A stretch of DNA of 63,119 nucleotides, the filler included, from Hausera hauseri (taxonomy: Eukaryota): assembly GCA_046269625.1 (NCBI GenBank). It is 10 parts of 10 records of this genome, joined end to end, with 100 filler letters (N's around TTAATTAATTAA, not from the genome) between each part and the next. Parts side by side here need not be neighbours in the genome. Positions count along the whole stretch, not along the records: positions 6,487 to 12,384 come from JBJURY010171972.1; 9 more parts are not named here. One strand, given 5' to 3'. The notes below the pieces were generated by a model. It worked only from the letters and a program-made list of their open reading frames with translations, was not told the DNA's origin and made no database searches. The position numbers and the translations under genes were made by a program. Within the stretch, counting starts at the first letter, position 1. Each line of letters starts with the position of its first letter. Shown here one piece after another: positions 3,001-35,351 of the stretch.

Positions 3001-5666
3001 CAATTAGGAATAGTCATGAGGATTTAGAAAGTTCAATTGAAAGAGGAAGCAAAAGTCCGAATATCGTAAAACAGCATAGATTTAAGACCAAGGAAAAAGA
3101 CAGCGTTGAACCTAATAAAAGGTATTCAGTTGAGAAAGAAGGTCGAAAATCGTCACAAAAATCTGTAGGGAAAATGAGCAAGGGTACCGGCATGGTGAGG
3201 GAACTTAGTAGTAAGTCAAAGGAAAAAGAGACTGTTGAACCAAGTAAAAAGTCCTTAATTGAAAAGGAAAGTCGTAGGTCTTCAGAGACAGATAAAAGAA
3301 GTGCCAGCATGAAGAAGCAACATAGCAGTAAATCCAAAGGTAAGGACAGTGTCGACTTTGGTAAAGTACCTTCTGTTAAAAGGAAAAGCCGCGAATCGTC
3401 GGAAAATTTAGTAGAAAGACAAAGCAAGGGTCCTAGTATGGTCAAACAACACCATAGTATGGAAAAGGGTCAGGAAAGCATTGAACCAAGGGAAAGCGGT
3501 AAACAATCAAAAAGTTCCAGAGGAGACGAATATCCCAGCTTGACAAAGCAACCAACCAGTTTGTCAGGAACTGAAAAGAAGTCATTTCTACAATCAATAA
3601 CTTCAAAAGTGAAGTCATTTAAGAGTCCTATTTCAAAGCAACAAAGCAAACAATCAATAGATGATGCAAAATCTTCACTCGGGTTAACAAATATTAAAAG
3701 CAAAGATAGCGACAGGCCTAGTAGCAAATCCACAGGTGATCGTGAATCATTTCCAATATCTGATGGGTCTCTACACAAACGACATAAAACTCCAAGTATG
3801 ACGAAAGAAGCTGTAACAAAATCGACATATGAAAAAGACAGCAAAAGAGTGTGGCCGGATCATAAGTCAATTCTCGAGAGAAAGTCATCTGTAGAGTCAG
3901 AAAGTACTGAAGGGACAGAAGGAAAGAGCTGGTATGCAGCGAAAAGGCCGACCGAAAAACATACAATTGAAAATCCGTCATCTCAAGAATCACTGGATTC
4001 ATACGAAACTGGTCGAAAGACATCTCAACTGGCCACCTCAAAATATATACCATCAAGTCTGAAAGAAATCTCCAAGTTTGTATCCACTGAATCCATCAAT
4101 GCGGAAGAAATTGAAATGGATCAGTCCGGCAATGTTGCAGTCGAACGACCGAAATCCAGATCACTTTTGAAGAAGCATCCAAAGAGCAAAACTCACACAG
4201 ATTTACGTTATTCCCAAAAACGGATTCAAACAACAGAGAAACCCAAAGAACAAAAACATTCTGTTAAAACCACATCTCCAGTATCTGATAAAAAATTAAA
4301 AGTCGCAAATTATGCCAAACAAGAAATAACCAAACCAACGTCCAAACGAAGTTTCTCAATAAAATCCATATCTTCAAAGGACAAGTCGAATGATCCACGA
4401 TATGGGAAACAGGTTATTAAGAAAAATAAGAAATTGAAAGGGCGATCTAAGGATTCACAGTTACAAATTGATTCTAGCGTACAAAGCGACTTGTCCAAAG
4501 TCAGCAGACCATCCAATATTATTAAACGCAAAAAATCCAGTAAAGTTCCATCTGATAAGAGCGTTTCAGAATCGTCAAATAAAACCAAGGATTCGGCGAT
4601 TCGTCAATCAAGGAAAAAGAAATCTTTCAAATCGCGACGAGGGAAAAGAATTTCGGTTGACTCTCAAAGTTCACCAGACGATAAACTTGCGAGTATTAAA
4701 TCTGACGGTAAGCCCTCATCGAAATCTCTATCAATCATTTCAAAACGTAAATCGAAGTCCAAACCACAAAAACGTAGTAAAATCAAAAAGTCCTTATCGA
4801 TTTCTTCAAAACGGTCATCTAAAAAGTCCAAAAGCACAAAACCAGATTCTGAAACAAATTCCGTAATGGTCACAACGGATGAAGGCAGTACAGAGTCTCT
4901 TTCACGAAAGAAATTTCGAAAAAGTACTGAAAGCAGTAATGAAGATAAGATCACTGAATCTGCTGGCTCTAAGGGGAGACAATCGCAGTCGTCAGTTACA
5001 TCCAGCAGCACTTCAAGGAAACAGAAACGTTTAAAATGCAGACGTCGGAAACGGCGTTCAAGAGACCGAAAATCGTCTAGAAGTAGTAGACTCGGTAGAA
5101 AGAGAAGTCGACGTAGAAAACGGCAGAAACGATCACGAGCAAAATCTTCCTCAGAGTCATCTGATACATCACCCGAAAACGAAAGTTTTATATTAGAAAC
5201 GGAAGATGGAAGGCAGAAGATTAGAAAAGTAACAGCTGACTTTCTAACAACAACAACAACAACAACAACTGACACATCTGATGATCATTTTGTTCAAAAG
5301 CATAAAAAATCTAAAGGCAAGATTAAGGAATCAATTTTATCGCAAAAGTCCGTTAATTCGGATGGTACCAATAAGAATCTCGACGATCGTGCAGTTCAAA
5401 CTGGTCGGTTAATAATTTATAACAGTGCGGCACCAGACACAGTTTTCAACAAAACCAACTCATTCAATCGCAAACAGAACTTATCGCTGTCTGGTCGAGA
5501 AATGGAACTCATCCCCGAAAATAAGCAAGAGAGAGAATCGTTTTTATCGGATGAAAACTCGAAAATATCACAGGTTTCAAGCATATCGATGAAAAAGCCG
5601 TTTAAGCAAATGTTACGAGATATACAGATCGAGTCGTTCAGATACCGATTTTGTCTATTTGCTTAG
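3..5666 (+). CDS. Very long Ser/Lys/Arg-rich low-complexity protein, 5'-truncated (>1880 aa), with internal repeats and an Arg-rich protamine-like patch
   Basis: The frame of ORF 219..5666 is open from base 3 and runs 5.6 kb without a stop in AT-rich DNA. RKQKRLKCRRRKRRSRDRK..RKRSRRRKRQKRSR lies near 5015-5140. It may continue by splicing into 5667-6090. Confidence 0.8.
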   Translation, partial: PSHDRKAFSLPKYDISPSPIDSHVDDEKNDRKNEWDVSTFSSTDRSNKSTITETKEVKRRTTIKNSKVYTSQMISVEDSSKNSVDGDVNGKQSASSRGRLTAGRNIMKASVRKSSLIKRSYSESEMGNDDESRNDDIPKMINRISNAKGKSSRDSVKLTDKTTQSQSSSRRVSEVSDAEFKRSKGSGSKSPTIIKQSDFESVDTKKSARQSRNHTYKDTKRSSMKKGSGRHRAVELEYSLESEKSTDTDGESQSAFRQYNSETGKYHVVDRTHYKQPETSTEEEESNVPSIKVSNRKPGMQPIKSKDHKSPQSPSISNQKSTNEKSIDNDVSSYQSTSLKIKTSKKSSRKSNFENELDQILEHSADEISKGQGMAKQPSGKFSEKEKPSRQSERSVKSGKSSKKQNKETLEDRRIPHVAGVLNYKESKETNRQFLTTRESYDESRSSKVMKPYDSKSEDESSIESSNKSSIGEKRLEESESIAERKSKRPSRKNRLSSKSTGKESFEPSKESSSDKESRKQSRSSMERRSKSSNITKERDSDIKVKGSVTQDKKSFAEKESKRISDNSLDPENRDLSRMKQFSSKSKGKDSYESSIQLRAKLSPKEPESSENSNSLSVIKNHQKKSMTRDNIHTKAKSSNKRKSVKDSESSAEDKSKTFKLSKKHSSKLKGKESVAPSKRSFVKDSRELSESSFDLGSRGASTIKPYTSTLKGKDGFESGKRSYIEVEYPGSIGMEGISPNLPKQYSGKSKGKDDVERKKKSLIEKESHKVQDSSFERETKGPSMIKPPKRTTDSVKPTKNIFVEKDSHRSTEGSFDLGHQSPSMMKKSNTKSKGKDSTKPKRKSSVKRKSRRESTSSVDRESKSSKKTKKHKSKLKKGDSVKSSRKSFEDSSSEKNNKGTNMMKQHRSKSKRNDSVKRSRKSSKKRKSYSESESFIDKESMKGDRSRSKSKDSFVQTEKSFVGRQSRKLTEGGKSPRMTKQHNSKSRGKGSIKPSRNSSIRNSHEDLESSIERGSKSPNIVKQHRFKTKEKDSVEPNKRYSVEKEGRKSSQKSVGKMSKGTGMVRELSSKSKEKETVEPSKKSLIEKESRRSSETDKRSASMKKQHSSKSKGKDSVDFGKVPSVKRKSRESSENLVERQSKGPSMVKQHHSMEKGQESIEPRESGKQSKSSRGDEYPSLTKQPTSLSGTEKKSFLQSITSKVKSFKSPISKQQSKQSIDDAKSSLGLTNIKSKDSDRPSSKSTGDRESFPISDGSLHKRHKTPSMTKEAVTKSTYEKDSKRVWPDHKSILERKSSVESESTEGTEGKSWYAAKRPTEKHTIENPSSQESLDSYETGRKTSQLATSKYIPSSLKEISKFVSTESINAEEIEMDQSGNVAVERPKSRSLLKKHPKSKTHTDLRYSQKRIQTTEKPKEQKHSVKTTSPVSDKKLKVANYAKQEITKPTSKRSFSIKSISSKDKSNDPRYGKQVIKKNKKLKGRSKDSQLQIDSSVQSDLSKVSRPSNIIKRKKSSKVPSDKSVSESSNKTKDSAIRQSRKKKSFKSRRGKRISVDSQSSPDDKLASIKSDGKPSSKSLSIISKRKSKSKPQKRSKIKKSLSISSKRSSKKSKSTKPDSETNSVMVTTDEGSTESLSRKKFRKSTESSNEDKITESAGSKGRQSQSSVTSSSTSRKQKRLKCRRRKRRSRDRKSSRSSRLGRKRSRRRKRQKRSRAKSSSESSDTSPENESFILETEDGRQKIRKVTADFLTTTTTTTTDTSDDHFVQKHKKSKGKIKESILSQKSVNSDGTNKNLDDRAVQTGRLIIYNSAAPDTVFNKTNSFNRKQNLSLSGREMELIPENKQERESFLSDENSKISQVSSISMKKPFKQMLRDIQIESFRYRFCLFA
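1100..3900 (+). repeat. Degenerate ~129-nt (43-aa) coding tandem repeat
   Basis: Unit resembles SMxKQHSSKSKGKDSVEPSKKSxVEKESRESSExxxERxSKGP; ATGs at 3309 and 3438 are 129 nt apart. Boundaries approximate. Confidence 0.75.
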
Positions 5667-6733: not shown

Positions 6734-7010
6734 TCAATGGACCAATAGATCATGGGCGGCAAGGAAATCTAAGCCTATTATAGGAGATTTAATGTTGGCC
6801 ACGTGGAACTTCCAGAAAAACTTATCTGGCAAGTTGGCGAATGCGAAAGTCAATTCCGTGATTCCTGCAACGTGTAACAGTTGACCATTGGCAGTGAAAA
6901 GCGGTGGACAGTATATCATAGTCGATGTGGGAGCAAAGGACAAGGAAATGAGCGAAAAGGGAGCTCCTGAGTCTATAAGGTAGTTGATATATGAAGTATC
7001 TCTTCATAAC
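6734..7010 (-). pseudogene. Retropepsin (LTR retrotransposon aspartic protease) remnant
   Basis: YLIDSGAPFSL, LFTANG, FFWKFHVANIKSPIIGLDFLAAHDLLV; frameshifted; no RT follows. Confidence 0.85.
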
Positions 7011-7174
7011 AGTACAGTTTTCAACAGAAACACTGCAGAGGCGGTGTTGAAACGACCAGAAGTTTGAGCAATATTGCCTGCGCCAGAATGTGCCGTAAAA
7101 TCTGGCGGCATTATTAATTTTTTGAAGGTTTTGGAGAAAAGGAAGAAGAGGAAGAAAAGCGAGGAGATTTATCG

Positions 7175-8184
7175 TTGTAATGTTTACAATCAGGCACGCA
7201 TGACCTAGCCGGTTACTGTAACTTATTGTGGTAAATACAAATAGGGTTGTTCACAGTGTACCGTTCGCTGTAGAACCGACAACCCAAAAAGCACTTCCTA
7301 GCATCCCTTCGAAATCGCGTGTGATAGAAGCAAGTCATGCGTCCTCCAGGTAAAATGGATGAATAAGAGTGTCTAAAAATGCTTCTCTTCCTTGAAGGTC
7401 TGTTTTCACTTCGTCCAGGCCCATTATGATTATTCAGTTGGGTAGTAATGGTCGAAATCGACTGCTGCAACTTGTCAAACTTGCTGCATCATTTGCAATT
7501 GTTTAGTGAAAAATGTGGTATCTGTAGTTGGAGCACATGTAGTTACAGCTGCAATAGGGAGAGAACTGTTGGTATTAAGAATCTCAAAGTATTTGTCAGC
7601 CGTTACTGCCAGTTGTTCGATGGCAGTGGACTCGTCGACAACGCTGAGTAAGGCTCTGATTGAGATGGGCAAGGAGGAAAAGAAATAACGGCGAATTAAA
7701 TCCGCGTTATTCATAGGTGCCACTCCTAGCGCGTTGAGATGCAGAATAGCTTTTGGAGAAAGTCGGATGGCTTTTGGTTTCCTATGGTGTGGTCATTAAA
7801 ATTCTTTTGTATTATATTGTCAATCGAAGGATCCGCGACATGCAGTACAGCTTCACAGAGTGGCTCGTAAGGTGTCGAGGACTGTAGCAGCTCGAAGATG
7901 TTATTAATCTACTGCTTGACGTTGGCTCGAACAAAAGAATTTATGATGTTGTTCGATTTTAGCCACTGCTGGTGGAATTGGAGCCATGGTTTGCTGGAGT
8001 TGCTTTTGTCGAGGAAAAATTCAACACAAGATAAATTTAATGAACCTCGTGACTGTTGGGAGTGTGGCAGACGATAGACGTTGCTTGTATTCGTGTATTT
8101 ATCATCCGAGAAGGATGGATTTGAGTGCGATCCGCCACGAAGGCAAAATGGAGCACCAGATGGATGATGGGACGTTCGTGGCAT
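7175..8184 (-). pseudogene. Ty3/Gypsy CsRn1-like gag remnant with two CHCC-type zinc motifs
   Basis: KPWLQFHQQWL, KPSDF, LIRRYFFSSLPISIRALL, CFYHTRFRRDARKCFLGC and CIYH...ARSCVPDC; homologous to 17320-18330. Confidence 0.8.
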
Positions 8185-8879
8185 GTAAAAAGCAAAAGGG
8201 AGTCGGAAGGATGTATTATAAGCCCTTGATATATAAAATAGAAATCAGAAGTGTTATATTATGAGGACAAAGCGTTATATAAGAACTGTGCTGTCTCGTT
8301 GAGTGGAGCTTTTAAGGTTATAATGTGTTGATTGTAGCAAAAGACCAGGAAAGATAATTGTAATGAGGTCATCTCAAAGGAACAATGAAATGTACTGGGG
8401 GCTTGGGCGGTTACCTTTCGGGTTAAGAAGCCGTTCGAGCGTACATCCGGGATAGCGGTGGCAAATGATGATTGGGGTAAAGAAATATACAAAGATGTTA
8501 AGCTTAGAAACCCTTTAAAATGAAAAAGGTTTAAGCCAGGAAGGATCTGCATATGCGCAAAAAATGGTCACAATGGTGGAGGCAAATCAATGAAAAAAAT
8601 CTCACCCATCTGTATTTGAAGGTGGTTTTGCTGAACGCCATGACAGTATCCTCATTATGACCAATCATTGACGATGTGGTTTTGATACAAAATGACTGCG
8701 TTGAGCAATTTTCACCAGGACCGAATGTTGTTAAATTGATATGGGCGCCGTGTGACTTGATCTGTCTTTGTTGTGAGAGTATAATATTATCTGCGACTTG
8801 AGGAGCCATTCCTTCATTTAGAAAAGCTTTTACATCGCTATAATCACTTTTGCCACTCATTTTTTAACAGATGATGCTC

Positions 8880-11800
8880 GATCAGAAAGAAGAGAATTAA
8901 TTGATAAATATCCAAGATGGAAAAGAAAAGGCTTCAGTGCAGTTTGAACGTCATACACTGGCGTAAGTCTTTTACACAAAATATCTGTATTATTTCTTCT
9001 CGAATTACGAACTATAATATCCGATACTTTTATCATGTTCGTTCTCTTTACATTCTCAAAAATAGCAGCTTCGATCTATCTTCTATAGCTATTGTTTAAA
9101 TAGAACGAAATGAAACTACTGGATAACCAATTGCTCAGAATCCGTATCACATTTACAAAATTATTCGGAGACAGAGCTAGACAAAAGAGTAAAATCAACC
9201 TTGCCGGAGAACTGGAATCAATTATTCTATAAAGAAGATTTTGGGATGATTGTATCTGGTCAATTAGAGATGATGAGGTGCTGGATTTTCGTGTTTCGGT
9301 TAATGCAGGAAATGAATTGTGATCATCGAATATATTATAAAGAATAACATTTTTGGTTTCATTGTGCCAATGGAGCTGTACGGACTAAAGTTACAATCCT
9401 CAAAAGTCTAATAAGAAGTTCAAAAATGTTGCCAGCTTTATTTCGATCATCTGATAATGGAAACGGCATCCAATATACGTGTCCGGTGGCATACATTGGT
9501 GGACAATTGTAAATGGCAACAATGTCTCTAAGAAATGATAGAACATTCAGAGTTTTTGTTTTCTTCAGGATGTGGAATTGATTGGAAAATTAACTTAAAG
9601 GTAATGGACGTACATAAACGATTGCAAATGAATTGAATCACACAGTTTGCAAATATTTTTAAGGAAAACTTTTGAGCCTGTTGCATCTGAGCATTGCACT
9701 GGAGAGCGATCCAACAATTTAGTCGTCTAACTTCCAAAACCAGAAGTCTGACGCAAATGCAAAATTTCAACAGAAAAACCCCTAACAAGTAAATTCCCTC
9801 GAATTAGAGTTGCATTTTCGAAATAACGCATGTATTCCAGAAATTTGAGACGAGATAAGTCGTGGAGTATTAATCAAATTAAACCCATTTTCTTTTTTTA
9901 TGTAGTCGGCATATTGAATTAGTACAGCTCTATTTAATTCTGCACACAACCCATCGTCCATAATTGAATCATTCTCAATATTAGCAATTTTTTTGTTTTT
10001 GATATTAACTATTGTCTTTCGAACATTTGGCATAAATAACAGTGAGCTCAGTACAGAATGAAAAACTCGAGATGACCCTTTCATACATGACAAGAAGTCT
10101 AACTGTTCATTCGTTGAATTTTTGTCATACTCTATTTGCTTGAGTCCCGTTTTACCTTGAAGATATGAGAACGAATGTCGAAGCTTTTTGTTCAGCAAAC
10201 ACCGACTGCACTCTTGACAATAAGTCGATTGAAATTGTTGTAAATGATAAGATATTATATCATAATTTTGATCCATTTTTTTGAAACCAGAAGTGGAATT
10301 GAATAAGAGTCCTGATAAACTCTACTCAAATTTATGTTCGTAGAGATTTTTCTTTAAGACTGCGTCGGCTTATTTGTTGCGGAATTACTGAACAACCTTT
10401 GATTTGAACCTAGTTTTCTTACATTTCGACTTTGCGGTGAAAATGACCTTGGCGATCCACTCGGTCGACGATCAAGAGTAATATCACTGATATTACTCGA
10501 TTTCAGTTTATTTACGGGTCTTTGCAATGAATGGTTTTAAGTTACCGATTGGATGTGATAGAAAATTATTTTCCGTATATTCGTGATAAAGATCCAATCT
10601 CTGATACATAATCAAGTTAAGGATCTCGAATCGAGTTTTGTGACCATTGAGGTTGACATCAAGTAACGTCAGCAGGTTATCAAATTGTTCTTTGGAAAGA
10701 TTATATGAGATAATGTCAGTCTTGCATCCAACAATCTTCAACAGACATAATATTTGGCGTGGAAAAATAGTCCCATTCGGAACTCTGATGTCACAGAATT
10801 CAGGAAATGTTGTTGCAGAAAAGTTTGAGTCAAACGGTGGAAGTCTGAGTAAAGTTCGATACCGAGTACCGCCTCCTCCACTGGAGCATAAACTGGCAAC
10901 ACACCTGTCAAGACTTAAGTCTCCACTATCAACAAAAATCGATAAATTTTCATTCACGTATTTTTTCCACAACTCTTCAACTCTCTCTATAAGAATAAAA
11001 CTTCCATCCAATCCAGGGTATTCTTTTCCGCTTCTTGGAGATTTGCAGATCCATAAATTCCAATTATCATTCCCCAACCAAAATGGCGTAAATTTAATCG
11101 AATCTTGCATAAATTCCATGATATCAAACAACGTGCATTTCACATTATAATTCGATGCCGTTTCAATGTGCTTACCTTTTATCAACTGATTATCGTTTGT
11201 ACTAAAATTGTGTAAATATGTAAAAATATCACTGGAAAAGACGATATTTAAGCGTCCCGATTTGGAGAAGTTTAGAAAACTCGTATCTGATAAACACTGT
11301 TTGGTTGAATCAAAATTAAATCATCAACTAACATTAGAGACGTGGGAATGATGATGAACTTGAATATTATATCACTCGCAGTATGTTGGATTGTATTGGA
11401 AATTTTCTTTTTGAATTGATCCGTGTTGAATTGGCCTCGATACCACAGAGTCACAGAAACATCATATGGTTCTTCCACTGAACAATCATTTTCAATCACA
11501 CTGCTCAATGAAGTTTGTCAGAAATATATCTTTACTGGTATTTAATTTTGGTAAGCAAGAACTTTTAATGACCAAAGGATCTGATGACATTCGATAAATC
11601 AGTTGCACCGTGAAAATTGCTATGACCTCATTTGGAATTCCATGTGCAGCAGTTTGGTTATAGAGATAGATTTCACCATGTTGATCTTTACTCAAAAACA
11701 ACCTTTCAGACAATAATGAATCACTGAGCTTTGGTGATACAAAATGGAGTTGAAAATTTTGTTTTAAATAACAACAAAACGCCAACAAATTTTCTGCGGC

Positions 11801-12142
11801 TAAGGCTGGAACAGACCATGAAAATTGTTTGGGACTTTGGGGTTTATTGCTGTAATCTTCACTAAGAAGAAAATCCAAGTCTTCTTTGTTCAGCGAAACA
11901 ACGGAATTCCGAGATATGAATTCCGATAACTGTCGTAATACGAATGAATCGATTTTTCATCCAATATTTAAAATAATTGAGTTTAGCATGTCGTTATTGG
12001 GTTTTTTGACTCGGTGTATCGATAATTTAAGAAGCTTGCTTAATTTCGGAATGAAATTCACTTGATTAGTTATTTTTTGGAACATCTTTCAACGTACTGA
12101 AAAGAGGAGCCGATTTTATTGACATTATAACAATTTTCCAAC
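8880..12142 (-). pseudogene. SZT2: Decayed internal/C-terminal fragment of SZT2 (KICSTOR subunit)
   Basis: Colinear motifs recalled from SZT2: KIDSFVLRQL..SLNKEDLDFL, YLKQNF..FVSPK, IYLYNQ, TLWYRGQFN, PRQILCLL..ISYNL, RFEILNLIMYQRLDLYH, LNRAVLIQYADYI. In-frame stops and frameshifts present; 3' boundary approximate. Confidence 0.75.
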
Positions 12143-12143
12143 A

Positions 12144-12161
12144 ATCCCACTTCTGACACCA
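12144..12161 (-). promoter_or_regulatory. Primer-binding site complementary to the 3' end of tRNA-Leu
   Basis: Minus strand ...AACA-T-TGGTGTCAGAAGTGGGAT; matches the tRNA-Leu(CAA)-type 3' end ATCCCACTTCTGACACCA. Confidence 0.9.
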
Positions 12162-12162
12162 A

Positions 12163-12384
12163 TGTTGAGAATTGAATTATATCAGAAAGGAATAAATCCA
12201 AACGATGAGAAAATAGTTAGTAACAATATATTCTGTTCAAAAAGTCGGTAACAATATTCAATTTCAATATTTCAAATCAATGTTTTTTACATTTATACAT
12301 GATTATAAACATAATTTACGTTTATACCAGATCAGACAAATAAGAGCTGCTAACAACAAGAACAAAATTGTAAAAGTATGAGAT
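12163..12384 (-). mobile_element. 3' part of an LTR, truncated by the contig end
   Basis: Ends in CA just before the PBS. Shares colinear motifs aataaa(a)tcca, cggtaacaa and tatttcaaa(a)tcaat with the LTR at 22888-23422. Confidence 0.75.
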
Positions 12385-12484: not shown

Positions 12485-12633
12485 TCTTTAGGGATGACTG
12501 ATTTATAGCGGCACAACAATTCATAAAATCGACAATAAGATTCAGAAGAGAAATTAGTTTCGACATGAGGTGGAAATTCGGCATACTTATAAGGCTTTTC
12601 TTCAATAGTTGTAGAAGAAGGAAATACTTATAG

Positions 12634-12879
12634 TTATACTTTATAAGTATTTCCTAAAGTGGTAAAAGCATGAAGCTTGACGGACGTCGGTGCATTATTT
12701 GCTATTCTGATCGGTACACGACCGAAGTGTACTCTTGCTAGTATGTTACTAAGTAATATATTCGAATTTAATGTCTCCTTTGGTTTGAAATTTACCAGTT
12801 GATTGTCATCTTGTTGAACTTGAGCATAGATTATTATCTCTGTTCTTGGTGGAATGTTTTCATCGACTGGTATCCACAC
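12634..12879 (-). pseudogene. Gypsy pol linker (degenerate dUTPase-like segment between protease and RT)
   Basis: IPPRTEIII...VPIRIANNAPTSVKLHAFTTLG pattern directly after the protease. Confidence 0.55.
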
Positions 12880-12899
12880 TTCTCAAAATTTCCTATCCT

Positions 12900-13270
12900 T
12901 AGCGTTTTTATGCCTTTGTCTGTACTGATTTCTATTAGTATTCCTGTTTGCAAGTCGATTGCTATATTTGGTAGTCTTTTTAGTAGATCATATCCTAAAA
13001 CTATGTCGTCAGTTAATTGTTCCATAATTGCAAATTCGTGATGGAAAAATTGTTTAAATATTTGAACTTCTGGGTTCCATTTAAACATTGGTTTCGACAT
13101 TTGGCCAAAAGCTCCTGTACTTCCTAGGTCTTTTGTAGATGGTGGGTATAACTGTCCTCTCAGCGTTTGATGTATTGAATCATTTTTAATGTAGGACACC
13201 TCAGAATCTGTATCGATTAATGCTTAAACTTCCCAATCTTCAAGAATGATTTTGGCGAAAGGTCTTCCTT
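12900..13270 (-). pseudogene. Retropepsin remnant
   Basis: GRPFAKIILEDWEV*ALIDTDSEVSYI...HEFAIMEQLTDDIVLGYDLL; catalytic DTG changed to DTD. Confidence 0.8.
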
Positions 13271-13781
13271 CAATTACTGCTCCAAAACAGTTTGATGCAA
13301 CTTTTGGGCGTTTAGTCGCCGATATTTTATGTCCGTTGATTCGGATTTCTGTAGAGGAAACTATATTTTCCAACAGTTGTTTTAATTCTCCGTTTGGATA
13401 AAATTCATTTTTTTCTATGTTCAATTTTTCCGTTTCATGTGTACTAATTAATGGTTCTCGATTGTTAGTGTGTGGTTCTATATTCTCGAAGGTTTTTAAC
13501 CTTGGACTTTCCCAGACAGTTGATCTAGTTTTTATATTCCGAGGTTCTCTAGGGGAATGCAATATTCTGTGGTCGTTGAGGGGCTGTCGATAATACATTT
13601 TCCGTAGGACTCAGTAACGTTTTGTTCCTTCATAAGGGTCTTCTAAACTAATTGTCCTTTTATAGATTTGTGTCTTATATAAACTCATTGATCGTTTGTC
13701 ACAGTCTTTATAGACTGGCGCGGTAGGGGGTAGCACAAGCAATGTTGCTTTAATGACCGAATACGTCTTATGTCTGTTTGT

Positions 13782-15775
13782 TCATGAAAGTACTTTTCCT
13801 CCTTTAGGCTCGTTATCATTTGAATTATTTCGTCGCGTATTAGGTTTTGTAAATTTCCGCTTGTACAAAAACATAGGCCTTCCTTTTCGTTTGCGATTAT
13901 GATAACCGAAATGACGTTCTTCGTCTGATTTCCATCTATTTTCTTCGTATGCCTTTAAAAACTTTCCAAAACGAGTAATGACTGCAGTCAGCATTTTACA
14001 TGAAAATCCGGTTAATGTAAATATTTCACAGCCATTTATTACTGCTTGAATGACGGCCTTAATCATTTGTATTAGGAAATATATTTCTAAGAATCCGGAT
14101 GCGACTTGGCCAAAAATCAAAAATCTTCCCCAAATTTTGTAGAGTATTTCTGTGGTTACTCGCTGATAATGGTTTACGCCAAGTAATGATTCCCATTTAG
14201 CTTGGTATCGAGTGTCATCCACTACAGAGGCCATGGCTCGATTTATTTCATGGGTCCGTTGTCGCGGAAAAGCGAGAATTTGTCCGAAAGCTTCAAGTTC
14301 CTTAGGTCAATATATGCCTTTTAACGATGTGTCTTAAAATTTGTCGTCTGTAATTCCTTTTTCGAGATTTGTTCCTGTTAATTTATTTGGTGCGGCAGTA
14401 ATACCTCCATGTGGCAGACTAACTAAATCCGTTTCACTACGTCTAAACACGGGTTCTCCTAAGCTTGCTTTACAATCCTTAAGGATTGTCGGTTCAGTTG
14501 CATTGTCTAATTGTACTCTAGTGAGTGGTATAGCTAACCTTGGAGTACTCTGGTAAATAACAGGAAGCTTCTGTATGCAAAGTTTTTCTTCAACGTTGAT
14601 TGGTACATCCCTTTTCTCACATTCGTAAGTCAATAGAACTTCACTTTTAACTCGACCGAAGATTCCTTCTCTCATAGGAATTATTGGGGATGCAAACTTA
14701 GGATTAGCGTAAATAAGAGCCAGTTTTGTCCTCATAATTTCCATATCCAATTTACAATCATGTGTTATCATTTTATGATATAATTCAGTTATTCCGACCT
14801 GCCCTTTGTAATAGAAATAATCGTCTCTGTTTTTCAGGTAGTCCTCAATCCGAATGTCTAGCGTTTCTAACTTGTAAGCCTTAGCATTTATTTCTGTCTC
14901 GGCGATGAAAAGCGCCTTATAGTTAGTAGCGAACATCACTACTTCACAACGAGAAATCATTTCTTTTTTAATAAATTTTAGCCCATGCTGATCAGAAATT
15001 AATACAGTAGGTGTAGGATGTTCTGATATGTCGTCGTGTGTTTATGAATTGGTATTAGATTTATCCGCATATCGCCTTCCGGTAGTTTTATTAAACTTTA
15101 ATTCCTTAATTTTGATAAAATTAGCCTCTTCCAGAGGGAGGTTCCCAGATTATAACAGAACTTCTAAAAGCACAAGTTCCGTCTTGTAAGTGACATTTTT
15201 GATTCTCGGTATATAGTTTGGTGACAATATGGAACATTACTTTCTGTGTTCGCATCTCTGATTCATAAAAATCCACGACCACTACGTTTGCTTGTAATCT
15301 TTTTCCAGTGACGTATTCCGCTCCGTTACAATGTCCGTTATGCACGCCTAACCTTCCGACCACTTCCTTGTATGCTCTAATTATCTTTCTTGATAGCATT
15401 TTCAATTCCATACTATCCCATTGTACTCTTCCGTTCTCTTTAGCCTGTTTGCAGTGCTGGCGTTATAAGTTCATCGGAATTGGAGGGGTTGTTGGTTTAA
15501 TTATTGAAGACTGTCCGTGCATTAGTCCACAGTGAAAAATGCTACGAGATCTTTCAGCATACATTCCATTCCATCTAATGATATCAATTCTTGTTGTTGG
15601 TACAAAAAATAATTTTTCTCTCTCGTTTCTAACCTGTGCGGTCTGACATCTTCGCACACTTCCAAATCTATTGGGGAATATTTCTGCCTTAGTTTAAACT
15701 TATCGTATTCGTATACGGTAACAGCGCCTATGTGTTTTATTAGCATCATCAAGGTGAGTAAGCTGATAAGCCAAT
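13782..15775 (-). pseudogene. Chuvirus-like / gB-type (class III) envelope glycoprotein, fragmented
   Basis: Internal signal peptide WLISLLTLMMLIKHIGA, then IFHCGLMH, CNGAEY, CxxxxGxC..IIWEPP, DCKLDMEIM, EVLLTYEC, CIQKLPV, PLTRV, and a TM region FGQVASGFLEIYFLIQMIK..INGCEIFTLTGFS. Confidence 0.75.
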
Positions 15776-16436
15776 TTGTTTCATTTTTCTGGTTACTACT
15801 ATCTGTCGTTGTTAAATTATGTAGCATGCCTTCAAGCCTATTGTAATTTCCGGACCGTTTATTTTCTTCTTTTTCGAATATTCTTAACCAATTTACTTCG
15901 TAGGGTAGCTTTTTTGCCGCTGTTTGTGATAAGCTTGTAGCTCTATTAATTTCCTTCTCTCGATTAGGGGTTATTTTGATAGCTAAGTACAGTAAAAGTT
16001 TTCTCAGTTCTTCAATGGTGTTTTCCACCATGATCTTCTCGACTACCGAGTCATCGGTTAAGTTTCTTTTTGATAATTTGAAACGTGAACTCCTCGTCAT
16101 CCTAGCTGCATCGAATATCTCTTTCTCTCTATCATCTAATGTGTCGCCTTGGAGGCTTGAACAATTTACAATGCGTATTAAATTCTTCATTGTCTGTGTT
16201 GAGGGTAGGTATCGACATCTGTTTCAATTCTCTAATCAATTCCCCATTATAGTCAACTTCTTGTGTCTTCTTATGCCTACCGACTGGGCGTTTCGGCCTT
16301 GGGACATTGGCTATTATTTCACTCAGTGGCACTAAATTCTTATCGTATTGTTCCTTGTACTCATCCGTTTGTAAATACTCGAAATACATTGCAGCATCTC
16401 GGACTCCCATGATTTGTTCTACGCATTGTTCCGTCT
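15776..16436 (-). pseudogene. Unidentified helical/charged domain fused N-terminally to the glycoprotein (possible gag C-terminus)
   Basis: ORF 15522..16190 runs in frame into the glycoprotein signal peptide; ORF 16132..16410 overlaps it by a frameshift. Confidence 0.4.
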
Positions 16437-16536: not shown

Positions 16537-17170
16537 GGACAAGAGGTATGAACGAATTGTTGTAAACTTGCGGGTAGTTGTTGGAATGTTGTAACTGATG
16601 ATGAACCGAGGTTTCTAGCAATACTTGGTATATGATGATTAGTTGTTGATGAGGAATCAAGTGGAGCCTGTAGTAGGATGGTCTGGTCCGGAACCGTGTT
16701 TGAGTAAGTGCTATTGTTCAGTGATTGTACAGAAAATACCAGATTGTTATTGGAATTAGAACGAAGTACCGAGTGTTTTAAAATAGATGGCTTATTTAAT
16801 GTAGACTGTGTTGTCGTTGTAATTCTGTCTATATTTGTGTTATGGTTTACAGATGTATTTGCTTTTAGACAACGTCGGTTAAAATCAACTAGTAAATTAT
16901 AGTGTGAAAGGAAATATGGGCCAAGTATTGCAGTCTGCACGTTAGCGACTGTAAATGTCCAATGAAATGACGAGGAAAAGTTTTGTAGAGTGAAAGATAG
17001 TTTGCAGGTTCCGGCAATACGAAGACCTTGACCAAATGCAGTGTATAAAGGTTTTATTTTAGTTAAAGAATGTTGAACCGGAAAAGAAAGTAGGAGTAGT
17101 GAGATAGCTGCACCCGTATCGATTAGAAAATCTATGGATTGAATGTTAGGATTAGAGATAGCAGCTTTTA
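16537..17170 (-). pseudogene. Retropepsin plus Ser/Thr-rich linker of a CsRn1-like element
   Basis: DFLIDTGAAISLL, FHWTFTVANVQTAILGPYFLSHYNLLVDF. Confidence 0.85.
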
Positions 17171-17319
17171 ATGTGAAAACTGCAAATGAAGAGTGTCGGC
17201 AAAAGGAATTAGATAGATTGCCTTTGTCAGGATCTACCGCGAATACTAGAGGCGAAATCAGTATTTTTGTATTGGTGAGTTAGAACGGTTACTATTAGAG
17301 ATGTTGGGACGTCTATCCA

Positions 17320-18330
17320 TCGAGTAGTTTTTGCTAGTTTTGTAGGCACAGCCAGAAGTACAACTCCGAGCACTAGATCCGAATTTTGCATGATAGATGC
17401 AAATTATATTACTTGAATCTAGATTTGGCGAATATTTACAACCTAAGCAACATTTATTTGCGTTGTTATTAAATTTGGTTTGGTAGTAGCATACGAATGA
17501 CCTCGTAGGTGACGGTGTTCGATTTCTGGAAGGAGAACGTGTTCGATTAGACGAAGGAACATTACGACGATGTAAAGAAAGGTCATTCAATTTATCATTG
17601 ATAATGTTGATGGTGTGTTGGTGCCGCATTTTCGGCGAGTAATTGGTTTAACTGCTGTTCAAGTGTAACGCTGTTGGTAGTAACTGCTGCGTAAATGACT
17701 GGTTGAGTGTGTGCATTCAAAACCTCCTATGTTCTGTCCGTCAGTTCGGCCAATTTATCAAGTGTTGTCGATTCTTCAACGACAGTAGGCCCTAATTTGT
17801 ATGGGCAATGCGTTCAGGAAGTAGCATCGCAAAAGATCAGTGTTGTGTTGTTTAGTCACGCCAAGTGTTTGAAGTTGAGCGAGTGACGCTCTGAGGAAAT
17901 CAGATGGTTTTATCGTCCCCATAGCATTGTCGTTGAAGAAACGATGAATTATTGAGTCCATAGATGGTTCCGTAAGCTTTAAAACGGCGTTGTAAAGATG
18001 CGTGTATGGATCGGGTTTCTGGAAGATATCTAACAAATCATGAATGGCCGTTTTTACAGTTGTTGGTAAAAGACAAAGCAGGTTATGGGCTTTAATTAGC
18101 GGATCAGTGGTGTTGTTAGATTGCAGCCAAAGTTTGTGAAAGCTAAGCCACGTTTTGTTGGACTGCTCGTGGTCAATAAAATACTCCGTGCACTGAGAAA
18201 TGTGTTTGACTGACGAGGTTGAAGAAGTATAACTACTGAAAGAAGATGGCGTGGTAACAATAGACGATTTTTGGTTCAACGCAAAATGAGATGTTTTGGA
18301 GGTAGTTTTGTCACTGGTGTTAATGGTAGG
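17320..18330 (-). pseudogene. CsRn1-like gag remnant with two CHCC-type motifs
   Basis: KTWLSFHKLWL, DPYTHLYNAVL, KPSDFLR, FLNALPIQIR, CYYQTKFNNNANKCCLGC, CIYHAKFGSSARSCTSGC. Confidence 0.85.
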
Positions 18331-19269: not shown

Positions 19270-20400
19270 TAGATCGTCAATTCGGAAATTCTTGTGTGAT
19301 ACTTAGCAGAGCCACATGGGGATTTATAATCGTAACAGTTCGAGTATTCACGACTCCAACAAAACCTCGTTTATATTCGTCATATTTGGCTTTACAATCA
19401 ATAAGAGAAAATACGACAATTTCCGATTGATTATTTTCGTCCGTTTGTGACTTTGATATTAAATTTACAAGCTCGCCAATTTTTTCTACCGATACTAAGA
19501 ATGTACAATGTTGCCCTACTAATTGATCTTCATTCAGAAAGGGTTCTATATCTATGATAGTATTGTTCAATGAAACAAGATCGGGTATCGGGAAAAGTAA
19601 AGCATTCTGTAAAGCAAACGGACTACTCTTGTCAACACCGCAATACTGTTCGATTTTACTAAATTTCTCGTTTATCAACAAGGCAAACGCACATGACGCC
19701 TGCACATGATATGTGATCCTTTGGTAAATTCACATCTACGGCAACATAGAACACAGATACCACGTCGCCAATATGAAATGATGAACATCATCTCTGAATA
19801 ATCCGAATTTCCCCACGACGTAATGTTTATCAAATCACTCACAAAATCTCGTAAAGAAAAACTGAATACTCCACTAAATTGCGTACTATTCGACTGATTA
19901 TAATTAAGTATAATTTTGATGTGACTTTTTGTTACGATTAAATTTCTAACTTTTACGGAATAGTTAAATAAGTTTATAATCTGTTCCGTCAACATTCGAT
20001 TATTACCAACGGTAGATGGAGATTTGGATGTGAACCCACATAAAGGAAGTAGCTTTTCACTGACACCTTGATTTTGACAAATGACAAACAGTAGGCACAT
20101 TGTAAAAGATGTACCGTAATCATTAATCGGTTTGTTTTCGACGAATTCTACAGACCGGAATATGGTTTTAAAAAATGGTTTAAGCAGGGTTGTGAACACG
20201 TAATTGGATATTCCACAACGAATGGTATGTACTAAACGCTTATATGAACATACAGCAAGTCCAAAACTACTTTTGCGACCATGTAAACAAGATTCAGGTA
20301 TTTCCCTACTTACAAAACCAAGGGAAGGCGATGCTGTGTCAACTGTATAATGGACAAAGAAGTAGGGGAAAAGTGGGTAAAAAAATATCATGAATAAAAA
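19270..20400 (-). pseudogene. CLEC16A: Decayed fragment of a CLEC16A-like (GOP-1/Ema) gene
   Basis: KPFFKTIF..NDYGTSFTMCLLFVICQNQGVS..NRMLTEQIINLFN resembles RPFLDMVY..DDYHALFVLCLLYAMSHNKGM..NHPLAERLIRIMN. DLVSLNN lies downstream. Frameshifted. Confidence 0.6.
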
Positions 20401-20464
20401 ATGTATAAAAAATATTCACCAACCGAACAATGCATAATGGTGAATCTCACCTCATCGTGTACAG

Positions 20465-21975
20465 GTTTCTCCATGATCGGTGGTAGCATGTTGTATTGTG
20501 GAGACTGCAAATCGATGTTTTGCAAGTCAACCGCGTCATCTTACTGGTGATCTGTCCGAATTCGAGTTGTAACTTATGGAATACCTCAGAGGCCAAATCT
20601 GATCGATTCTTTCGAATTTAAAGTATACCTAGTAGAAACGCCGATTCTAAATCGTTGATTCGATCGACAGTGTCGCTGATGTTAAGTGCCATAGACAGAC
20701 AATGCTGGATATCGTCGGCCGATAGAACGGTGAGATCAATATCGAATGTACCATTAATCATACAAATTAAAAATCCGCATTTGACAAAGAAGGTAACAAG
20801 ACACATCTTTTATATCAGTATTCGATAGATATTCTTTAAGTCTATCCGAATCTCCCCCATTATTATAATTGGATAATTTCACATTACTTAAAAAATTTTT
20901 TGAAATCAGATGAATAAATAATCTGTAACGGATTAGCGCACAACGTAGACTCAATGTTTGTAACTGATGAGTCATCACAGACGAATTTATTAACTAACTT
21001 TGATTGAAACTTTTGTAATGGATTTGTAATTCCTGCATCTCTTCCAAAAATAATCATTGACGAAACAGAGAGATATTGAGAAGTTGCCATATCAACAATA
21101 AATAGACATGGTACGTTAATGAAAATGCTTATTGTAGAAGATGTTTCCGAATAAAATATCATTTCAATTTCATAGAAATTAATACGGCAAACCGAAACAG
21201 TTTTTTTGTTATCAAACTGGCAGATTCAATTTTCAGACAATCATTAAATACCTGAATAGAAAATAAATATTTTAAGTCTTTCCAGTTACAGGAGGTATTG
21301 AAAACCACTTCATAAATCGTGGAATCCGACTGTTCTAATCCGATTGTAGGTTTCTGGAATTCAAGATATCGTTTTACCAATAATTTTTATTGGTCATTTG
21401 CGATCACTATTAATTCTTCAAGAAAAGCAAATCAAAGTTCAATAGTAGGCAGGAATCCCAAAGCCAAACGGTGCGAAGAAGGTCACCGGATGAAACCGAA
21501 CAAAACAAACCATTTTTTAAAGCTTCCAAAGAGATTTGTAAATTCTTTACTGATAAATTTCTTCTTTACATATTTGTCAAAAACGTACGAATCTGATTTC
21601 GGAATTTGCATGTCGGTTTGATCATGCCGAAATATGTTACTATTAAAATTACCGATTTTCAAAAACAGCTTGGCCAACAATTGGTCTTGTGTACATATTG
21701 GATCGTGATCACTGTGAATTTGGGAATATTTATTACCGATATATCGGTGAACAACGGCACATTTAACACATAATGTAACATACAAATTAATCGAACACCA
21801 TTCGGGGTTTCCGGCCCTGCATTCAACACAATTTCGATTGTAATCATTGTCGAAAATTTTATCCATGAAACTTTTCGTGTTTAAATTTAAAATGGATGAC
21901 CACTTTTGACATGATTCGACATTTCGGAAAACGATTTCCAATTCAACTGTGTTGCTGAATTTCTTCAGATTATTT
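20465..21975 (-). pseudogene. Decayed ARAP-like fragment (PH end, ArfGAP zinc finger, PH region, start of RhoGAP)
   Basis: NRNCVECRAGNPEWCSINLYVTLCVKCAVVHRYIG..SQIHS, LKIGNFNSN, KYVKKKF. LPPIMEK near 20465 resembles a RhoGAP start. The ArfGAP call is firm; ARAP is inferred. Confidence 0.65.
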
Positions 21976-22875
21976 AATGATACAATCGAATTGCTTCTTT
22001 TAAAATGAGGAGCACATCGATTTTCACTATACGTAGGTGGTCCAAATTTAAAATTGACACAACTGTCCTGAAGTAAGTTGAGATAGATTAAAGCTACATA
22101 TGTTATAGGCCATGTAAGCACATCGAACATAAACTTCAAGAGCACATTTTCTCATGTTATGCATTTTATGGTAAAAAAGCACTCAATGTGTCAAAAACTT
22201 TACTGTTTGAACAAATAAGTTTCTCGAGCCGAACAGTTGTATGCGACGTTGAATAACGACTTAAACTTTTGAGGAATGCAGCTTCAGTCTCATTCTTCCC
22301 AACTTCGTAACTCGGAGTTTTTGTTCAATAATCAAAACTTCTCTGAGTTTGGCAACAATTTTTGCGAACGATTTAGAATATAAATTGGTTAAAACTTTCA
22401 AAATTATACCATTCAGATCAGTAACAAGGCCAGGTAAATATTTTTCAAGATAATCCATTAAGACAATAATAATTTTATTTTTTTTCATTGAGCTTGCTAT
22501 GGGAAAATATATCCATGGCTGAAACTGAGTATGTAAATATATGTTCAGAATTTTCCATTTCCTGGAACTTCATTTCACGATCCAAATAATTTCGTAAAAG
22601 GTTTTCAATTTCATGCTTGGCATTTCCTCTGATACCATCAGAATAAACTTCTGCAAGTTCAAGAGTTGGTCTCAAGATCTGTAAATAGGCCAATTTGAAA
22701 TTTTCTTCTTCAATTTCATTCAGAAAATTTTCAATTATTTTACGAAGCTCCTTTGATGGAAAACGAGAAAACAATGAAGAATAATTGGATGTATATTGAC
22801 CCATAACATTTCAAAGATTAGTAACGAGTCTATCTGGTAATAAACACAGTCGAACCATATTTGTATTTCTGTATA
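21976..22875 (-). pseudogene. ACAC: Decayed central-domain fragment of acetyl-CoA carboxylase
   Basis: MGQYTSNYSSLFSRFPSK, YSDGIRG, LLRNYL, IFSHS..KKNKII, TPSYE, EKLI..KVFDTL, FYH..ALEVYVRCAYMAY are colinear with the animal ACC central region; frameshifts present. Confidence 0.9.
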
Positions 22876-22886
22876 TTCTGACACCA
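22876..22886 (-). promoter_or_regulatory. Truncated tRNA-Leu PBS (TGGTGTCAGAA)
   Basis: Same ACA-T-TGGTGTCAGAA junction as 12151-12165. Confidence 0.8.
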
Positions 22887-22887
22887 A

Positions 22888-23422
22888 TGTTTGTAGGGTT
22901 TTTTCATAATAAAATCCATTAACGCGGTAACAAAGCTTTATATTTTTTCAATTCTAAACTAATTGATTATTTCAAAATCAATATCTACAATATTTATATA
23001 TACTATACAAATATTTATATGCAGTTTTGAAAATTTTTATGGTAGAATTCGTCGAATATTTTCTTTCCGGCAGAATATCAATTCATTCCGATGTATATTT
23101 TTGTTTTTGGCCGAACATCATATTGAATCTTGACCAAAGGAATACTCAAATTCGTATTGTTATGACCCGACACGACAGTAAAATTCGTTATAATTTTTTT
23201 ATCTTGAGTAAAAGAACAATAGCATGTTTTCGACTGTAAACTCGATTGTTTGGTTGGGTTGTTATAGTTCGTATAGGACGTTCCGGGACGACGAAATAAA
23301 GCACCAAGCACATAAATTTGTCGGCGAATGAAAAACAAGTGAAAATAAAATTGTATTTACAGTTAAATAAAGAAATGAAATAAAAACGAAAGCACGATCT
23401 CGTTGTGCACAACAGCACCATA
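22888..23422 (-). mobile_element. Complete ~535-bp LTR preceded by a PPT and followed by a PBS
   Basis: Minus strand GCAAGGGGGTGA-TATGGTG (TGTGGTG variant) ... TATA-like TATATAAATA ... AAACA-T-PBS. Confidence 0.7.
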
Positions 23423-24238
23423 TCACCCCCTTGCAAAGTCAGTTTTTTCAGGCGGGGTCCAACGTGAGTCTTCTGGTGACCAACACGTCGGTGGATTGTA
23501 ACCGAGAAGACGAAATACGTTCGGCAGGAATTCTTCGACTTCTCTCCAATAGGACGATGCAATGTCGATGAAGCTCACAATGGCAGCGCCGTATATTTCG
23601 GTATCGCCACGTGATGCAATATACGTAGTTAAAAACAGTGCACGGTCCTTTTCTTTCCAATTGATTTGGAGATTTTGTGAATAACTATGTAATGAACTCT
23701 CGATGTAGACCGCAAAATGTTACAATAATTCTTTCTTGGATGAGCTTACTAAGTGTTTTGATCATGGTTGAAAATAATAAAATTAATCAGTATACAAATT
23801 CAGCAGACGAAGAAATTGCTACTCCTAACTAGGTTTTATCAGATAGTGCTTTACCATCGCAAACTGTGTATTCAGCATTCAATAATCAATTTATTATGCC
23901 GAATAATTGTTTTAGTTCTTATGTTTTACCCGTTACGCTATTAAATAATAAAAACAATTACATATTTTACAACAGTTCCATTATTACAGATTTAGACCTG
24001 GTTCAGAAGAGTATTGTCGTGTTAACTTAGTTGGAAATTCCAAGGCAGCAAAATACCTGAAATACGGGTATAAATACAATTACTCTTCAAAAATTCGATC
24101 GCCTTCAAGAATTATATAATCGTTTTCCACTTTTGAACAAACTGCTGGTTAAACGAACATACTAGAAATCTTTTGAGTATCGACAGAATTTTACAGGAGT
24201 CGGACATGTTGCACAGACTTAAAGAAAAACGACTTTGC

Positions 24239-30212: not shown

Positions 30213-30879
30213 TATTATATGTGCTCTACATGTGAGGTAGTGTGCCAGACCAAATATGAAGACTTTTACAATGCTTATAAACAACACCTGATTCCCTTCA
30301 CCAAGTCAAAAAAAACAATTATTCAATACGGCTATGTCAATAATGACTTTCTAGCATAAGAAAAGTCAAAGATGCAGAACTGTCATAATACTATGAGGAG
30401 CTATTATAGATACAAATTCAATAAGATCCTTTATTATATTTGCCCATGATGTGAGACTGTATGCGGCACAGATCACATACAATTCTATTATGATCACAAA
30501 CATCATTTGAGTCACTGCGCATCAAAGTCAAAGAAGGCCATCTTTAATGAGTAACATAATTTTCATGCATCTGCTTCGTAGTGTTATGCTTCGCAGTATT
30601 CTGCCTCACGTTATTCTGCTAGATCTGATGCAGCAGCTGGGAAGTATATTAGAGAATTGAAACGCGCAGCCGCATCATGCTCAGCAGCATCAGGCGCAGC
30701 CACATCAGGCACGGCCACATCAGACGCACAGGCTCCATCAAAAAGCCAAAGACAGCAGCCAGTTGATGCAGGAGCATTAAAGAAAAATTCCGCAGATATG
30801 TTATTGAGGCAACTGATCAAAAAACGCTCCAAGACACCCTCTCATACACAAAGGACGAGACAGATGGAATTCTTCAGGA

Positions 30880-33800: not shown

Positions 33801-34068
33801 GTATGCCAATGATGTATGTAGCCAAGTAAAGAAGCGGGCTAAAGGGGTTGAAAGGGTGACCTTAGCCAAGAAGATTGGTTTCAATGACTATGTTAGAGTT
33901 CTGCATGAGCAGACTCATATCATATCAGAGATGCGAAGGATCCAGTCTAGGGCTCATAACATTGAAACAGTAGCATTACCGAAGAAAACCTTAGATACGA
34001 TAGATGACAAGAGGGAGATACTAGATGATGGAATCCATACACTACCTCACGGACATGTAGCATTGTAA
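30880..34068 (+). pseudogene. Polinton/Maverick (adintovirus-type) protein-primed DNA polymerase B, decayed
   Basis: NNDNICFMYAIL..KHYVWI (OTU-like), VIYCDIE, DHCHFT..AACN (endonuclease VII-like insert), FHNLSGY, FIDSF, YLKTDV, YLDANNLYGWAM, KTMEN, YIDTDS, LPHGH. Confidence 0.92.
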
Positions 34069-34099
34069 ATATGTACATATTGTTTTTCTCTGTTTATAT

Positions 34100-34340: not shown

Positions 34341-34428
34341 CTATCTTCGATGACAGTATCATTATCAGTGTCTTCATCATCGTCCGAATAAATTATCGCT
34401 GGCAACATCAATGCGATATATATGTCAC

Positions 34429-34608: not shown

Positions 34609-34664
34609 TTTGAAAGAATGACAGAGTAATACAAGTATTAATGTATAGTATTGGTTTATTTATA

Positions 34665-35326: not shown

Positions 35327-35351
35327 TACCTCTATAGAAAATTTAATTGTT

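What the first reader, a model, noticed from the sequence alone, without database searches (positions are those of the whole stretch)
8880..12384. Independent second instance: the same LTR/PBS junction followed at once by ~3.3 kb of decayed SZT2
Seen: a full 18-nt tRNA-Leu PBS and an LTR end sharing three colinear motifs with the contig-4 LTR. SZT2-like coding sequence begins at or within ~150 nt of the PBS (LLENCYNVNKIGSSFQYVERCSK may already be SZT2), again in sense. The same junction with different cargo on a different contig suggests a recurrent process rather than an accident. The cargo span is similar (~3.5-4 kb), which could reflect a packaging-size constraint (inference).
Basis: partly seen in the sequence, partly recalled or inferred. 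Interest (0 to 1): 0.8.

Follow-up and report, generated by a model that had tools for sequence, protein, structure and literature searches.

The report
Retrotransposon carrying a dead SZT2 fragment
A dead jumping gene (LTR retrotransposon) carries a broken 3-kb piece of the host gene SZT2 directly behind its primer site, and a distant cousin in the same window carries pieces of other genes at that spot; they were likely picked up from messenger RNA during reverse transcription, a known kind of accident seen here at an unusual and possibly preferred position.

Summary
Mostly real, partly over-read. On the minus strand of contig 2: an LTR end (CA at 12164-12163), an 18-nt tRNA-Leu(CAA) primer site (12161-12144), then within 5 nt a decayed SZT2 fragment (12138-9169; residues 1888-2945 of a 3245-aa homolog, 44% identity, 12 frameshifts, 4 stops, no intron-sized insertion). 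The finding omits what follows: gag (two CHCC-type motifs) and protease, homologous to contig 4's at only 33-48%. So both contigs read LTR-PBS-[host fragments]-gag-pro, but they are sister families, not 'the same LTR': LTR similarity is marginal and the shared junction word also occurs in an unrelated gypsy element. In one public run a second SZT2-bearing copy has its own 278-nt deletion, and copy-to-copy differences look neutral, so the cargo was duplicated after capture. No intact parent gene was seen and intron loss is not shown. Best reading: LTR-mediated retroposition (Tan et al. 2016), in a variant where cargo sits between PBS and gag. The packaging-limit idea has no support (n=2). The interesting open question is whether the PBS edge is a capture hotspot.

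The parts
12163..12384 (-). 3' part of a 5' LTR, ending in CA (12164-12163); cut by the contig end
   Evidence: Sequence; an X1 contig diverges exactly after the CA, and depth is higher than over the cargo
12144..12161 (-). 18-nt primer binding site complementary to tRNA-Leu(CAA)
   Evidence: junction bridged by an X1 contig 12040-12219 with 0 differences
9169..12138 (-). Decayed internal fragment of SZT2 (residues 1888-2945 of 3245-aa P0002), sense to the element, 12 frameshifts, 4 aligned stops
   Evidence: PDB SZT2 is the only hit of the main frame, E 0.09
8864..9168 (-). Spacer between cargo and element coding region; not SZT2; shared with more copies than the cargo
8531..8860 (-). Short ORF, possibly the element's own 5' coding region (weakly like contig 4's ORF starting at 18728)
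   Evidence: Alignment p 0.035; no Pfam hit; uncertain
7186..8034 (-). Broken gag with two tandem CX2HX9CX3C-type motifs (7332, 7239)
   Evidence: tblastx to contig 4 gag, 41-48%; motif scan
6737..7099 (-). Aspartic protease (DSG), with a stop upstream; contig ends before any RT
   Evidence: Pfam RVP E 0.008, below cut-off; 39% to contig 4 protease
22876..22889 (-). Comparison element (contig 4): LTR end CA-T and 11-nt Leu PBS
19795..22840 (-). Comparison element cargo: ACC central (22840-22063), ArfGAP (21869-21537), weak CLEC16A-C (20184-19942), MEIOB OB fold (19959-19795), all sense
   Evidence: Pfam; ACC aligns to human ACC1 from 35 nt after the PBS, E 1.5e-8
16860..18198 (-). Comparison element gag (weak DUF7041, two CHCC-type motifs) and protease

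Best explanation
This is the 5' half of a dead LTR retrotransposon (LTR end, tRNA-Leu primer site, gag, protease) that holds a 3-kb broken middle piece of the host SZT2 gene between primer site and gag, likely captured when reverse transcriptase switched onto a co-packaged SZT2 mRNA. Shown: the anatomy, the SZT2 identity, truncation at both ends, sense orientation, the lesions, and at least one further SZT2-bearing copy with its own deletion. Inferred: during minus-strand synthesis the enzyme left the element RNA just upstream of its coding region (about 9169), copied about 3 kb of SZT2 mRNA and rejoined the element at the PBS; the chimera integrated, was duplicated at least once more (likely by retrotransposition) and cargo and gag-pro then decayed without selection. 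Contig 4 is a separate event, or series of events, in a sister family, with four host fragments in the same slot. The SZT2 piece cannot make SZT2 protein; it is a passenger.
For: LTR-PBS-cargo-gag-pro in the same order and strand on two contigs. SZT2 cut at both ends, starting 5 nt from the PBS, longest DNA insertion against the protein 5 codons; the 7-sequence SZT2 profile finds no convincing hit outside contig 2's minus frames. 4 of 4 firm cargo fragments (5 of 5 with weak CLEC16A) are sense; 0 Pfam hits in the 6 plus-strand frames of contigs 2 and 4. Several unrelated genes in one slot match the multi-switch chimeras of PMC5131818. 11 of 16 lesions lie at least 31 nt inside X1 contigs that match the window without difference. 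Another X1 contig lacks 278 nt of conserved SZT2 coding sequence (frame-breaking) and carries a stop of its own. 10 of 38 examined differences are synonymous, against 0.26 expected without selection. 3362 X1 contigs lie on the whole contig but 59 on cargo plus LTR end: a large family with a variable 5' part.
Against: No parent gene was seen, so intron loss and junction microhomology, the two direct marks of RNA capture, are untested. Homolog P0001 is a 715-aa single ORF on a 3109-nt contig and P0002 a 3245-aa ORF on a 10086-nt contig; if these are genomic the lineage's SZT2 is intron-poor and 'no introns' says nothing. Only 38 of 169 differences were visible, chosen by the tool for support; a functional parent among the other copies is not excluded (p 0.06-0.11; 11 of 15 informative changes leave the other copy closer to the intact protein). 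X1 may be the source sample. RT, integrase, 3' LTR and target-site duplication lie beyond the contig ends. A Leu PBS is atypical for CHCC-gag elements, which use Trp.
Confidence: 0.7

Rival explanations
1. DNA-level capture: a piece of an intron-poor genomic SZT2 gene entered the element by repair or ectopic recombination, with no RNA step, and later deletions brought it up against the PBS.
For: Long single ORFs in the closest homologs; deletions are common in this family; the PBS must be kept for replication, so deletions would stop there (established knowledge).
Against: All firm cargo fragments are sense and coding, from several unrelated genes packed tightly in contig 4; DNA capture predicts either strand and non-coding flanks.
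Confidence: 0.13
2. Two nested elements: a Steamer-like (Leu-primed) non-autonomous element carrying SZT2, followed by an unrelated CsRn1-like element that supplies the gag-pro.
For: Leu PBS is described for Steamer and related branches, CHCC gag for Trp-primed CsRn1 elements; depth rises more than a hundredfold from cargo to gag-pro; three CA-N-TGG words lie in contig 2's 9170-8050 stretch.
Against: The same pairing, order, strand and similar distance recur on contig 4 with homologous gag-pro; depth rises gradually over 9250-8060, without the block a second LTR would give.
Confidence: 0.1
3. This is the organism's own SZT2 gene, broken by an LTR insertion or misread because of micro-introns or errors.
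For: No parent seen; the contig's first six codons resemble SZT2 just upstream of residue 1888 (shuffle p 0.04).
Against: No intron-sized insertions at 16 lesions; 11 of 16 recur in X1 contigs; at least two separately decayed copies; the C-terminal 300 residues are replaced by element sequence; the upstream 222 nt behave like an LTR end in X1.
Confidence: 0.07

Closest known systems
LTR-mediated retrocopies of animals (Tan et al. 2016, PMC5131818; passages and section 5 read)
   Same: Partial mRNA pieces cut at both ends, embedded in LTR-element sequence, sometimes from two or more genes, able to be copied again with the element.
   Different: There the retrocopy replaces part of the internal ORFs; here it sits between PBS and gag and gag-pro remain downstream. 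'PBS' and 'primer binding' do not occur in that main text; its supplementary junction list was not seen and may hold PBS-adjacent cases.
Maize Bs1 and plant LTR elements with additional ORFs (PMC7264820, passages)
   Same: Multi-gene transduction by an LTR element, sense to gag-pol; extra ORFs can lie upstream of gag.
   Different: Plant; Bs1 became a chimeric gene, plant additional ORFs are mostly between pol and 3' LTR. The cargo here is frameshifted.
CsRn1-clade Ty3/gypsy elements (PMC2582038, passages)
   Same: CX2HX9CX3C gag motif.
   Different: Motif is doubled here; primer is tRNA-Leu, not tRNA-Trp; RT not available for a tree.
Steamer and C9/C10 gypsy branches of bivalves (PMC8905726, passages)
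   Same: LTR ending in ...AACA followed by the same Leu PBS word.
   Different: Those are under 5 kb with a 12-nt PBS; here PBS to protease end alone is 5.4 kb and the gag has CHCC-type motifs.
Burro giant gypsy elements of planarians (PMC6431247, passages)
   Same: Invertebrate gypsy-type elements with host-like domains.
   Different: Burro domains are fused in an intact polyprotein; here the host pieces are dead passengers that differ between families.

Membership tests
LTR retrotransposon (Ty3/gypsy type) | LTR ending in CA followed by a tRNA primer site | tested here: met
LTR retrotransposon (Ty3/gypsy type) | gag and aspartic protease downstream, same strand | tested here: met
   (RVP and DUF7041 hits are below Pfam cut-offs)
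LTR retrotransposon (Ty3/gypsy type) | RT-RNase H-integrase order, paired LTRs, target-site duplication | not testable with these tools
   Both contigs end about 250-320 nt after the protease; no genome held
LTR-mediated retrocopy (Tan 2016) | Partial host coding sequence with element sequence on both sides | tested here: met
LTR-mediated retrocopy (Tan 2016) | Introns of the parent gene missing | tested here: inconclusive
   No insertion over 5 codons, but parent unseen and homologs may be intron-poor
LTR-mediated retrocopy (Tan 2016) | Microsimilarity at the switch points | not testable with these tools
   Needs the parent mRNA and a cargo-free element
LTR-mediated retrocopy (Tan 2016) | Further duplication of the chimera | tested here: met
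   A second, separately decayed SZT2 copy in X1; that it sits in the same element is inferred
CsRn1 clade | CX2HX9CX3C gag motif | tested here: met
   Exact at 7332 and 17401, imperfect at 7239 and 17491 (definition)
CsRn1 clade | tRNA-Trp primer site | tested here: not met
   Primer site is tRNA-Leu; not filed as a member
Steamer family | Leu PBS word after an AACA LTR end | tested here: met
   the paper says this is not diagnostic
Steamer family | Total length under 5 kb | tested here: not met
   PBS (12161) to protease end (6737) is 5.4 kb; not filed as a member
Steamer family | RT/RNase H tree position | not testable with these tools
   No RT on either contig

The most novel reading that the evidence does not exclude
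A whole gypsy-type lineage has a standing 'cargo slot' at the edge of its primer site: the plus-strand strong-stop DNA (LTR plus the copied 18 nt of tRNA) jumps onto a half-finished host cDNA, so new mRNA pieces are added directly behind the PBS again and again while gag-pol stay in place. Autonomous elements would then sample and amplify hundreds of host genes, an animal LTR counterpart of Pack-MULEs, with older cargo pushed towards gag. Hints: junctions 5 nt and at most 35 nt from the PBS in two families about 40% alike; a third X1 contig with this LTR end, a 10-nt PBS and a different continuation; copies that keep only the last 170 nt of the SZT2 piece. Against: an 18-nt Leu PBS also occurs in an unrelated element, and deletions up to the PBS would give the same picture.
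Probability: 0.25. Interest if true: 0.72.

Novelty: new variant of a known kind. Interest (0 to 1): 0.48.

Why it matters
Gene capture by LTR elements is known, mostly as rare accidents that replace the element's own genes. If this lineage instead loads host mRNA pieces at one fixed position without losing gag-pol, it would be a repeatable route for exon shuffling, a possible source of small RNAs against essential host genes, and a natural record of where reverse transcriptase switches templates that can be counted genome-wide. If not, it is one more dead retrocopy, and a warning that SZT2 hits in this assembly can be pseudogenes.

Tried and rejected
Whole-genome search for a parent gene: no genome held. 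Run search: 1 run listed, no RNA holder listed. Protein searches that found nothing: 270-aa ORF among longer proteins up to 2000 aa, contig-4 ACC region. Single ORFs alone hit PDB SZT2 only at E 0.4-1.3; Pfam has no hit for any SZT2 frame or P0001. Relatives of the protease: 0 of 275 stretches in viral contigs, 0 of 499 in metagenome contigs. SZT2 relatives in metagenome contigs: 1 of 357, which proved a chance match. No tRNA gene in the window. Protein Atlas gave no answer. Splice-out of the cargo as a way to keep gag translatable past 60-80 upstream ATGs: acceptor-like sites near the putative start rank 9 of 91 (contig 2) and 2 and 6 of 107 (contig 4), no strong donor near the PBS; inconclusive. 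The bacterial promoter scan is not applicable. Micro-introns rejected. Packaging limit: n=2, no support. My own argument that a full 18-nt PBS marks a tRNA copy was weakened. Earlier-findings look-ups by place and sequence were empty. Nine paper searches showed no paper on a PBS-adjacent cargo slot in animals or on an SZT2 retrocopy among the rows listed; only the top 20 rows of large result sets were seen and subscription journals are largely missing.

Full report
SETTING. The window is ten contigs joined by an artificial spacer; the finding is on contig 2 (6487-12384), its comparison on contig 4 (16537-24553). No genome is held.

JUNCTION. On the minus strand CA (12164-12163), T, then an 18-nt word (12161-12144), found once in the window, equal to the start of a published mouse tRNA-Leu(CAA) antisense probe, 19 nt with the next base (PMC7997516, one passage). 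The 16-mer across the junction is exact on contigs 2 and 4; shuffles give 0.08 matches even at 2 mismatches. Contig 4's PBS match is 11 nt. One public run, X1, holds 0.59 of the sampled words; it may be the source sample. One X1 contig bridges the junction without difference (12040-12219); one leaves the window exactly after the CA; one keeps 10 nt of PBS and goes on differently (6 of 15 loose ends shown, each of these from one contig). So this is an LTR end with at least three continuations.

IS IT THE SAME LTR AS CONTIG 4? No. The three motifs exist and are colinear, but spacing differs and both regions are very AT-rich: local-alignment p 0.006-0.43 over 9 settings, anchored global p 0.08, shared 8-mers 7 against 3.9, p 0.16; blastn finds nothing at E<=0.01. 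The junction word is generic: a Leu PBS after ...AAACA is described for Steamer and neighbouring branches (PMC8905726, passages), and the single match of the pattern in viral contigs is a gypsy-type contig with 24 identical bases and no translated similarity to contigs 2 or 4.

CARGO. The longest ORF found 1 protein among 1.84 billion representatives (P0001, E 1e-5), which is SZT2 (human SZT2 E 1.4e-20) and led to full-length P0002 (3245 aa). P0002 maps in 8 colinear segments at 25-54%. A frameshift-aware alignment covers residues 1888-2945 on 12138-9169: 976 aligned residues, 44% identity, 12 frameshifts, 4 aligned stops, longest DNA insertion 5 codons. It begins 5 nt after the PBS and lacks both ends of the gene; no other SZT2 part is convincingly in the window. 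11 of 16 lesions lie inside X1 contigs identical to the window. Four stops imply about 3% substitution since capture (rough).

WHAT THE FINDING LEFT OUT. Downstream on the same strand lie gag and protease, matching contig 4 in 8 chained tblastx segments at 39-48% (E 6e-53; one upstream segment is weak), each gag with two CX2HX9CX3C-type motifs. That motif marks CsRn1-like elements, which use tRNA-Trp (PMC2582038, passages), so I do not file it there. Contig 4 holds ACC, ArfGAP, weak CLEC16A and MEIOB fragments in the same slot, ACC from at most 35 nt behind the PBS. PBS-to-gag is 4133 and 4694 nt. Both contigs end before RT.

COPIES. 3362 X1 contigs lie on contig 2, 59 on 9150-12384; summed depth is 5-20 over most of the cargo, 28-46 at the LTR end and thousands over gag-pro (not a copy number). 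One contig skips 278 nt (11259-11536) that code residues 2088-2200, breaks frame and has its own stop; another has a 30-nt gap in a gap-free part. Of 169 listed differences 40 were shown and the 38 within the cargo examined (2 LTR rows dropped): 10 synonymous, 28 not, against 0.26 expected with no selection. In the two deletion-bearing groups the window matches the intact protein 4 times and the other copy 3 times; in the other three groups 0 against 8, so a parent or a less decayed sister among them is possible. A loose end at 9324 and higher depth at 9150-9257 suggest further copies that keep only the last 170 nt of SZT2.

MECHANISM. Shown: LTR end, PBS, truncated sense cargo, gag-pro, lesions, a second decayed copy. 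Inferred: template switching onto co-packaged mRNA as in PMC5131818 (passages and section 5), then re-duplication and neutral decay. Not shown: intron loss (the homologs are long single ORFs) and microhomology. More speculative: plus-strand strong-stop DNA ends after 18 nt of tRNA (PMC13191261, passages), and if that end jumped onto host cDNA the cargo would start at the PBS edge, as seen; but one search shows an 18-nt Leu PBS elsewhere, and deletions up to an indispensable PBS give the same result.

COMPARISON AND VERDICT. It works like an LTR-mediated retrocopy; it differs from the described fly cases in keeping gag-pro and placing cargo in the leader. Plant elements with upstream extra ORFs and Bs1 (PMC7264820, passages) and Burro (PMC6431247, passages) are other precedents. 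Three unchecked notes of this scan describe similar captures in other genomes. Supplements of these papers were not opened; Tan's junction list may bear on the novelty of the position. New variant of a known kind; interest 0.48; the hotspot reading has about 1 chance in 4.

Noticed in passing
window 23555-23758 (-): A broken Cse1 (exportin-2) fragment, Pfam E 5e-6, lies about 670 nt upstream of contig 4's PBS, same strand: flank, older cargo of a neighbour, or a host piece inside the LTR.
   Followed up: no
window 12485-16436 (-): Contig 3 carries pieces of a chuvirus-like fusion glycoprotein (Pfam Monjiviricetes_fusion, E 1e-15) followed by a weak aspartic protease hit: a broken env-bearing retroelement with env upstream of gag-pro.
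   Followed up: no
window 44603-45784 (-): Intact 393-aa Porphyromonas-type peptidyl-arginine deiminase ORF (E 1e-89) on a contig that also holds decayed DNA-polymerase-like sequence; possible horizontal transfer or mobile-element cargo.
   Followed up: no
window contigs 6, 7, 8 (30213-47929): Mutually homologous decayed ORFs, 28-45% identical, resembling Polinton/adintovirus DNA polymerase B (label recalled, from no call).
   Followed up: no
window 59523-63066 (-): Contig 10 has a run of co-oriented ORFs with RING, weak RNase T exonuclease and weak fibronectin III hits; possibly another mosaic or accessory-gene element.
   Followed up: no
window 3-5666 (+): 1887-codon open frame rich in K/S with degenerate repeats of about 120 nt; no Pfam hit.
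   Followed up: no
window 51355-53854 (-): Non-LTR element: endonuclease and RT, next to a 23-nt tandem array at 50598-51068.
   Followed up: no
whole window: CpG observed/expected differs between contigs (0.54-0.72 in contigs 6, 8, 9; 0.9-1.2 in the others): mixed organisms or patchy methylation.
   Followed up: no
L002:5998-6021: An unrelated gypsy-type contig shares 24 identical bases with contig 2's LTR/PBS junction, and its RT resembles contig 5's at 44%.
   Followed up: partly
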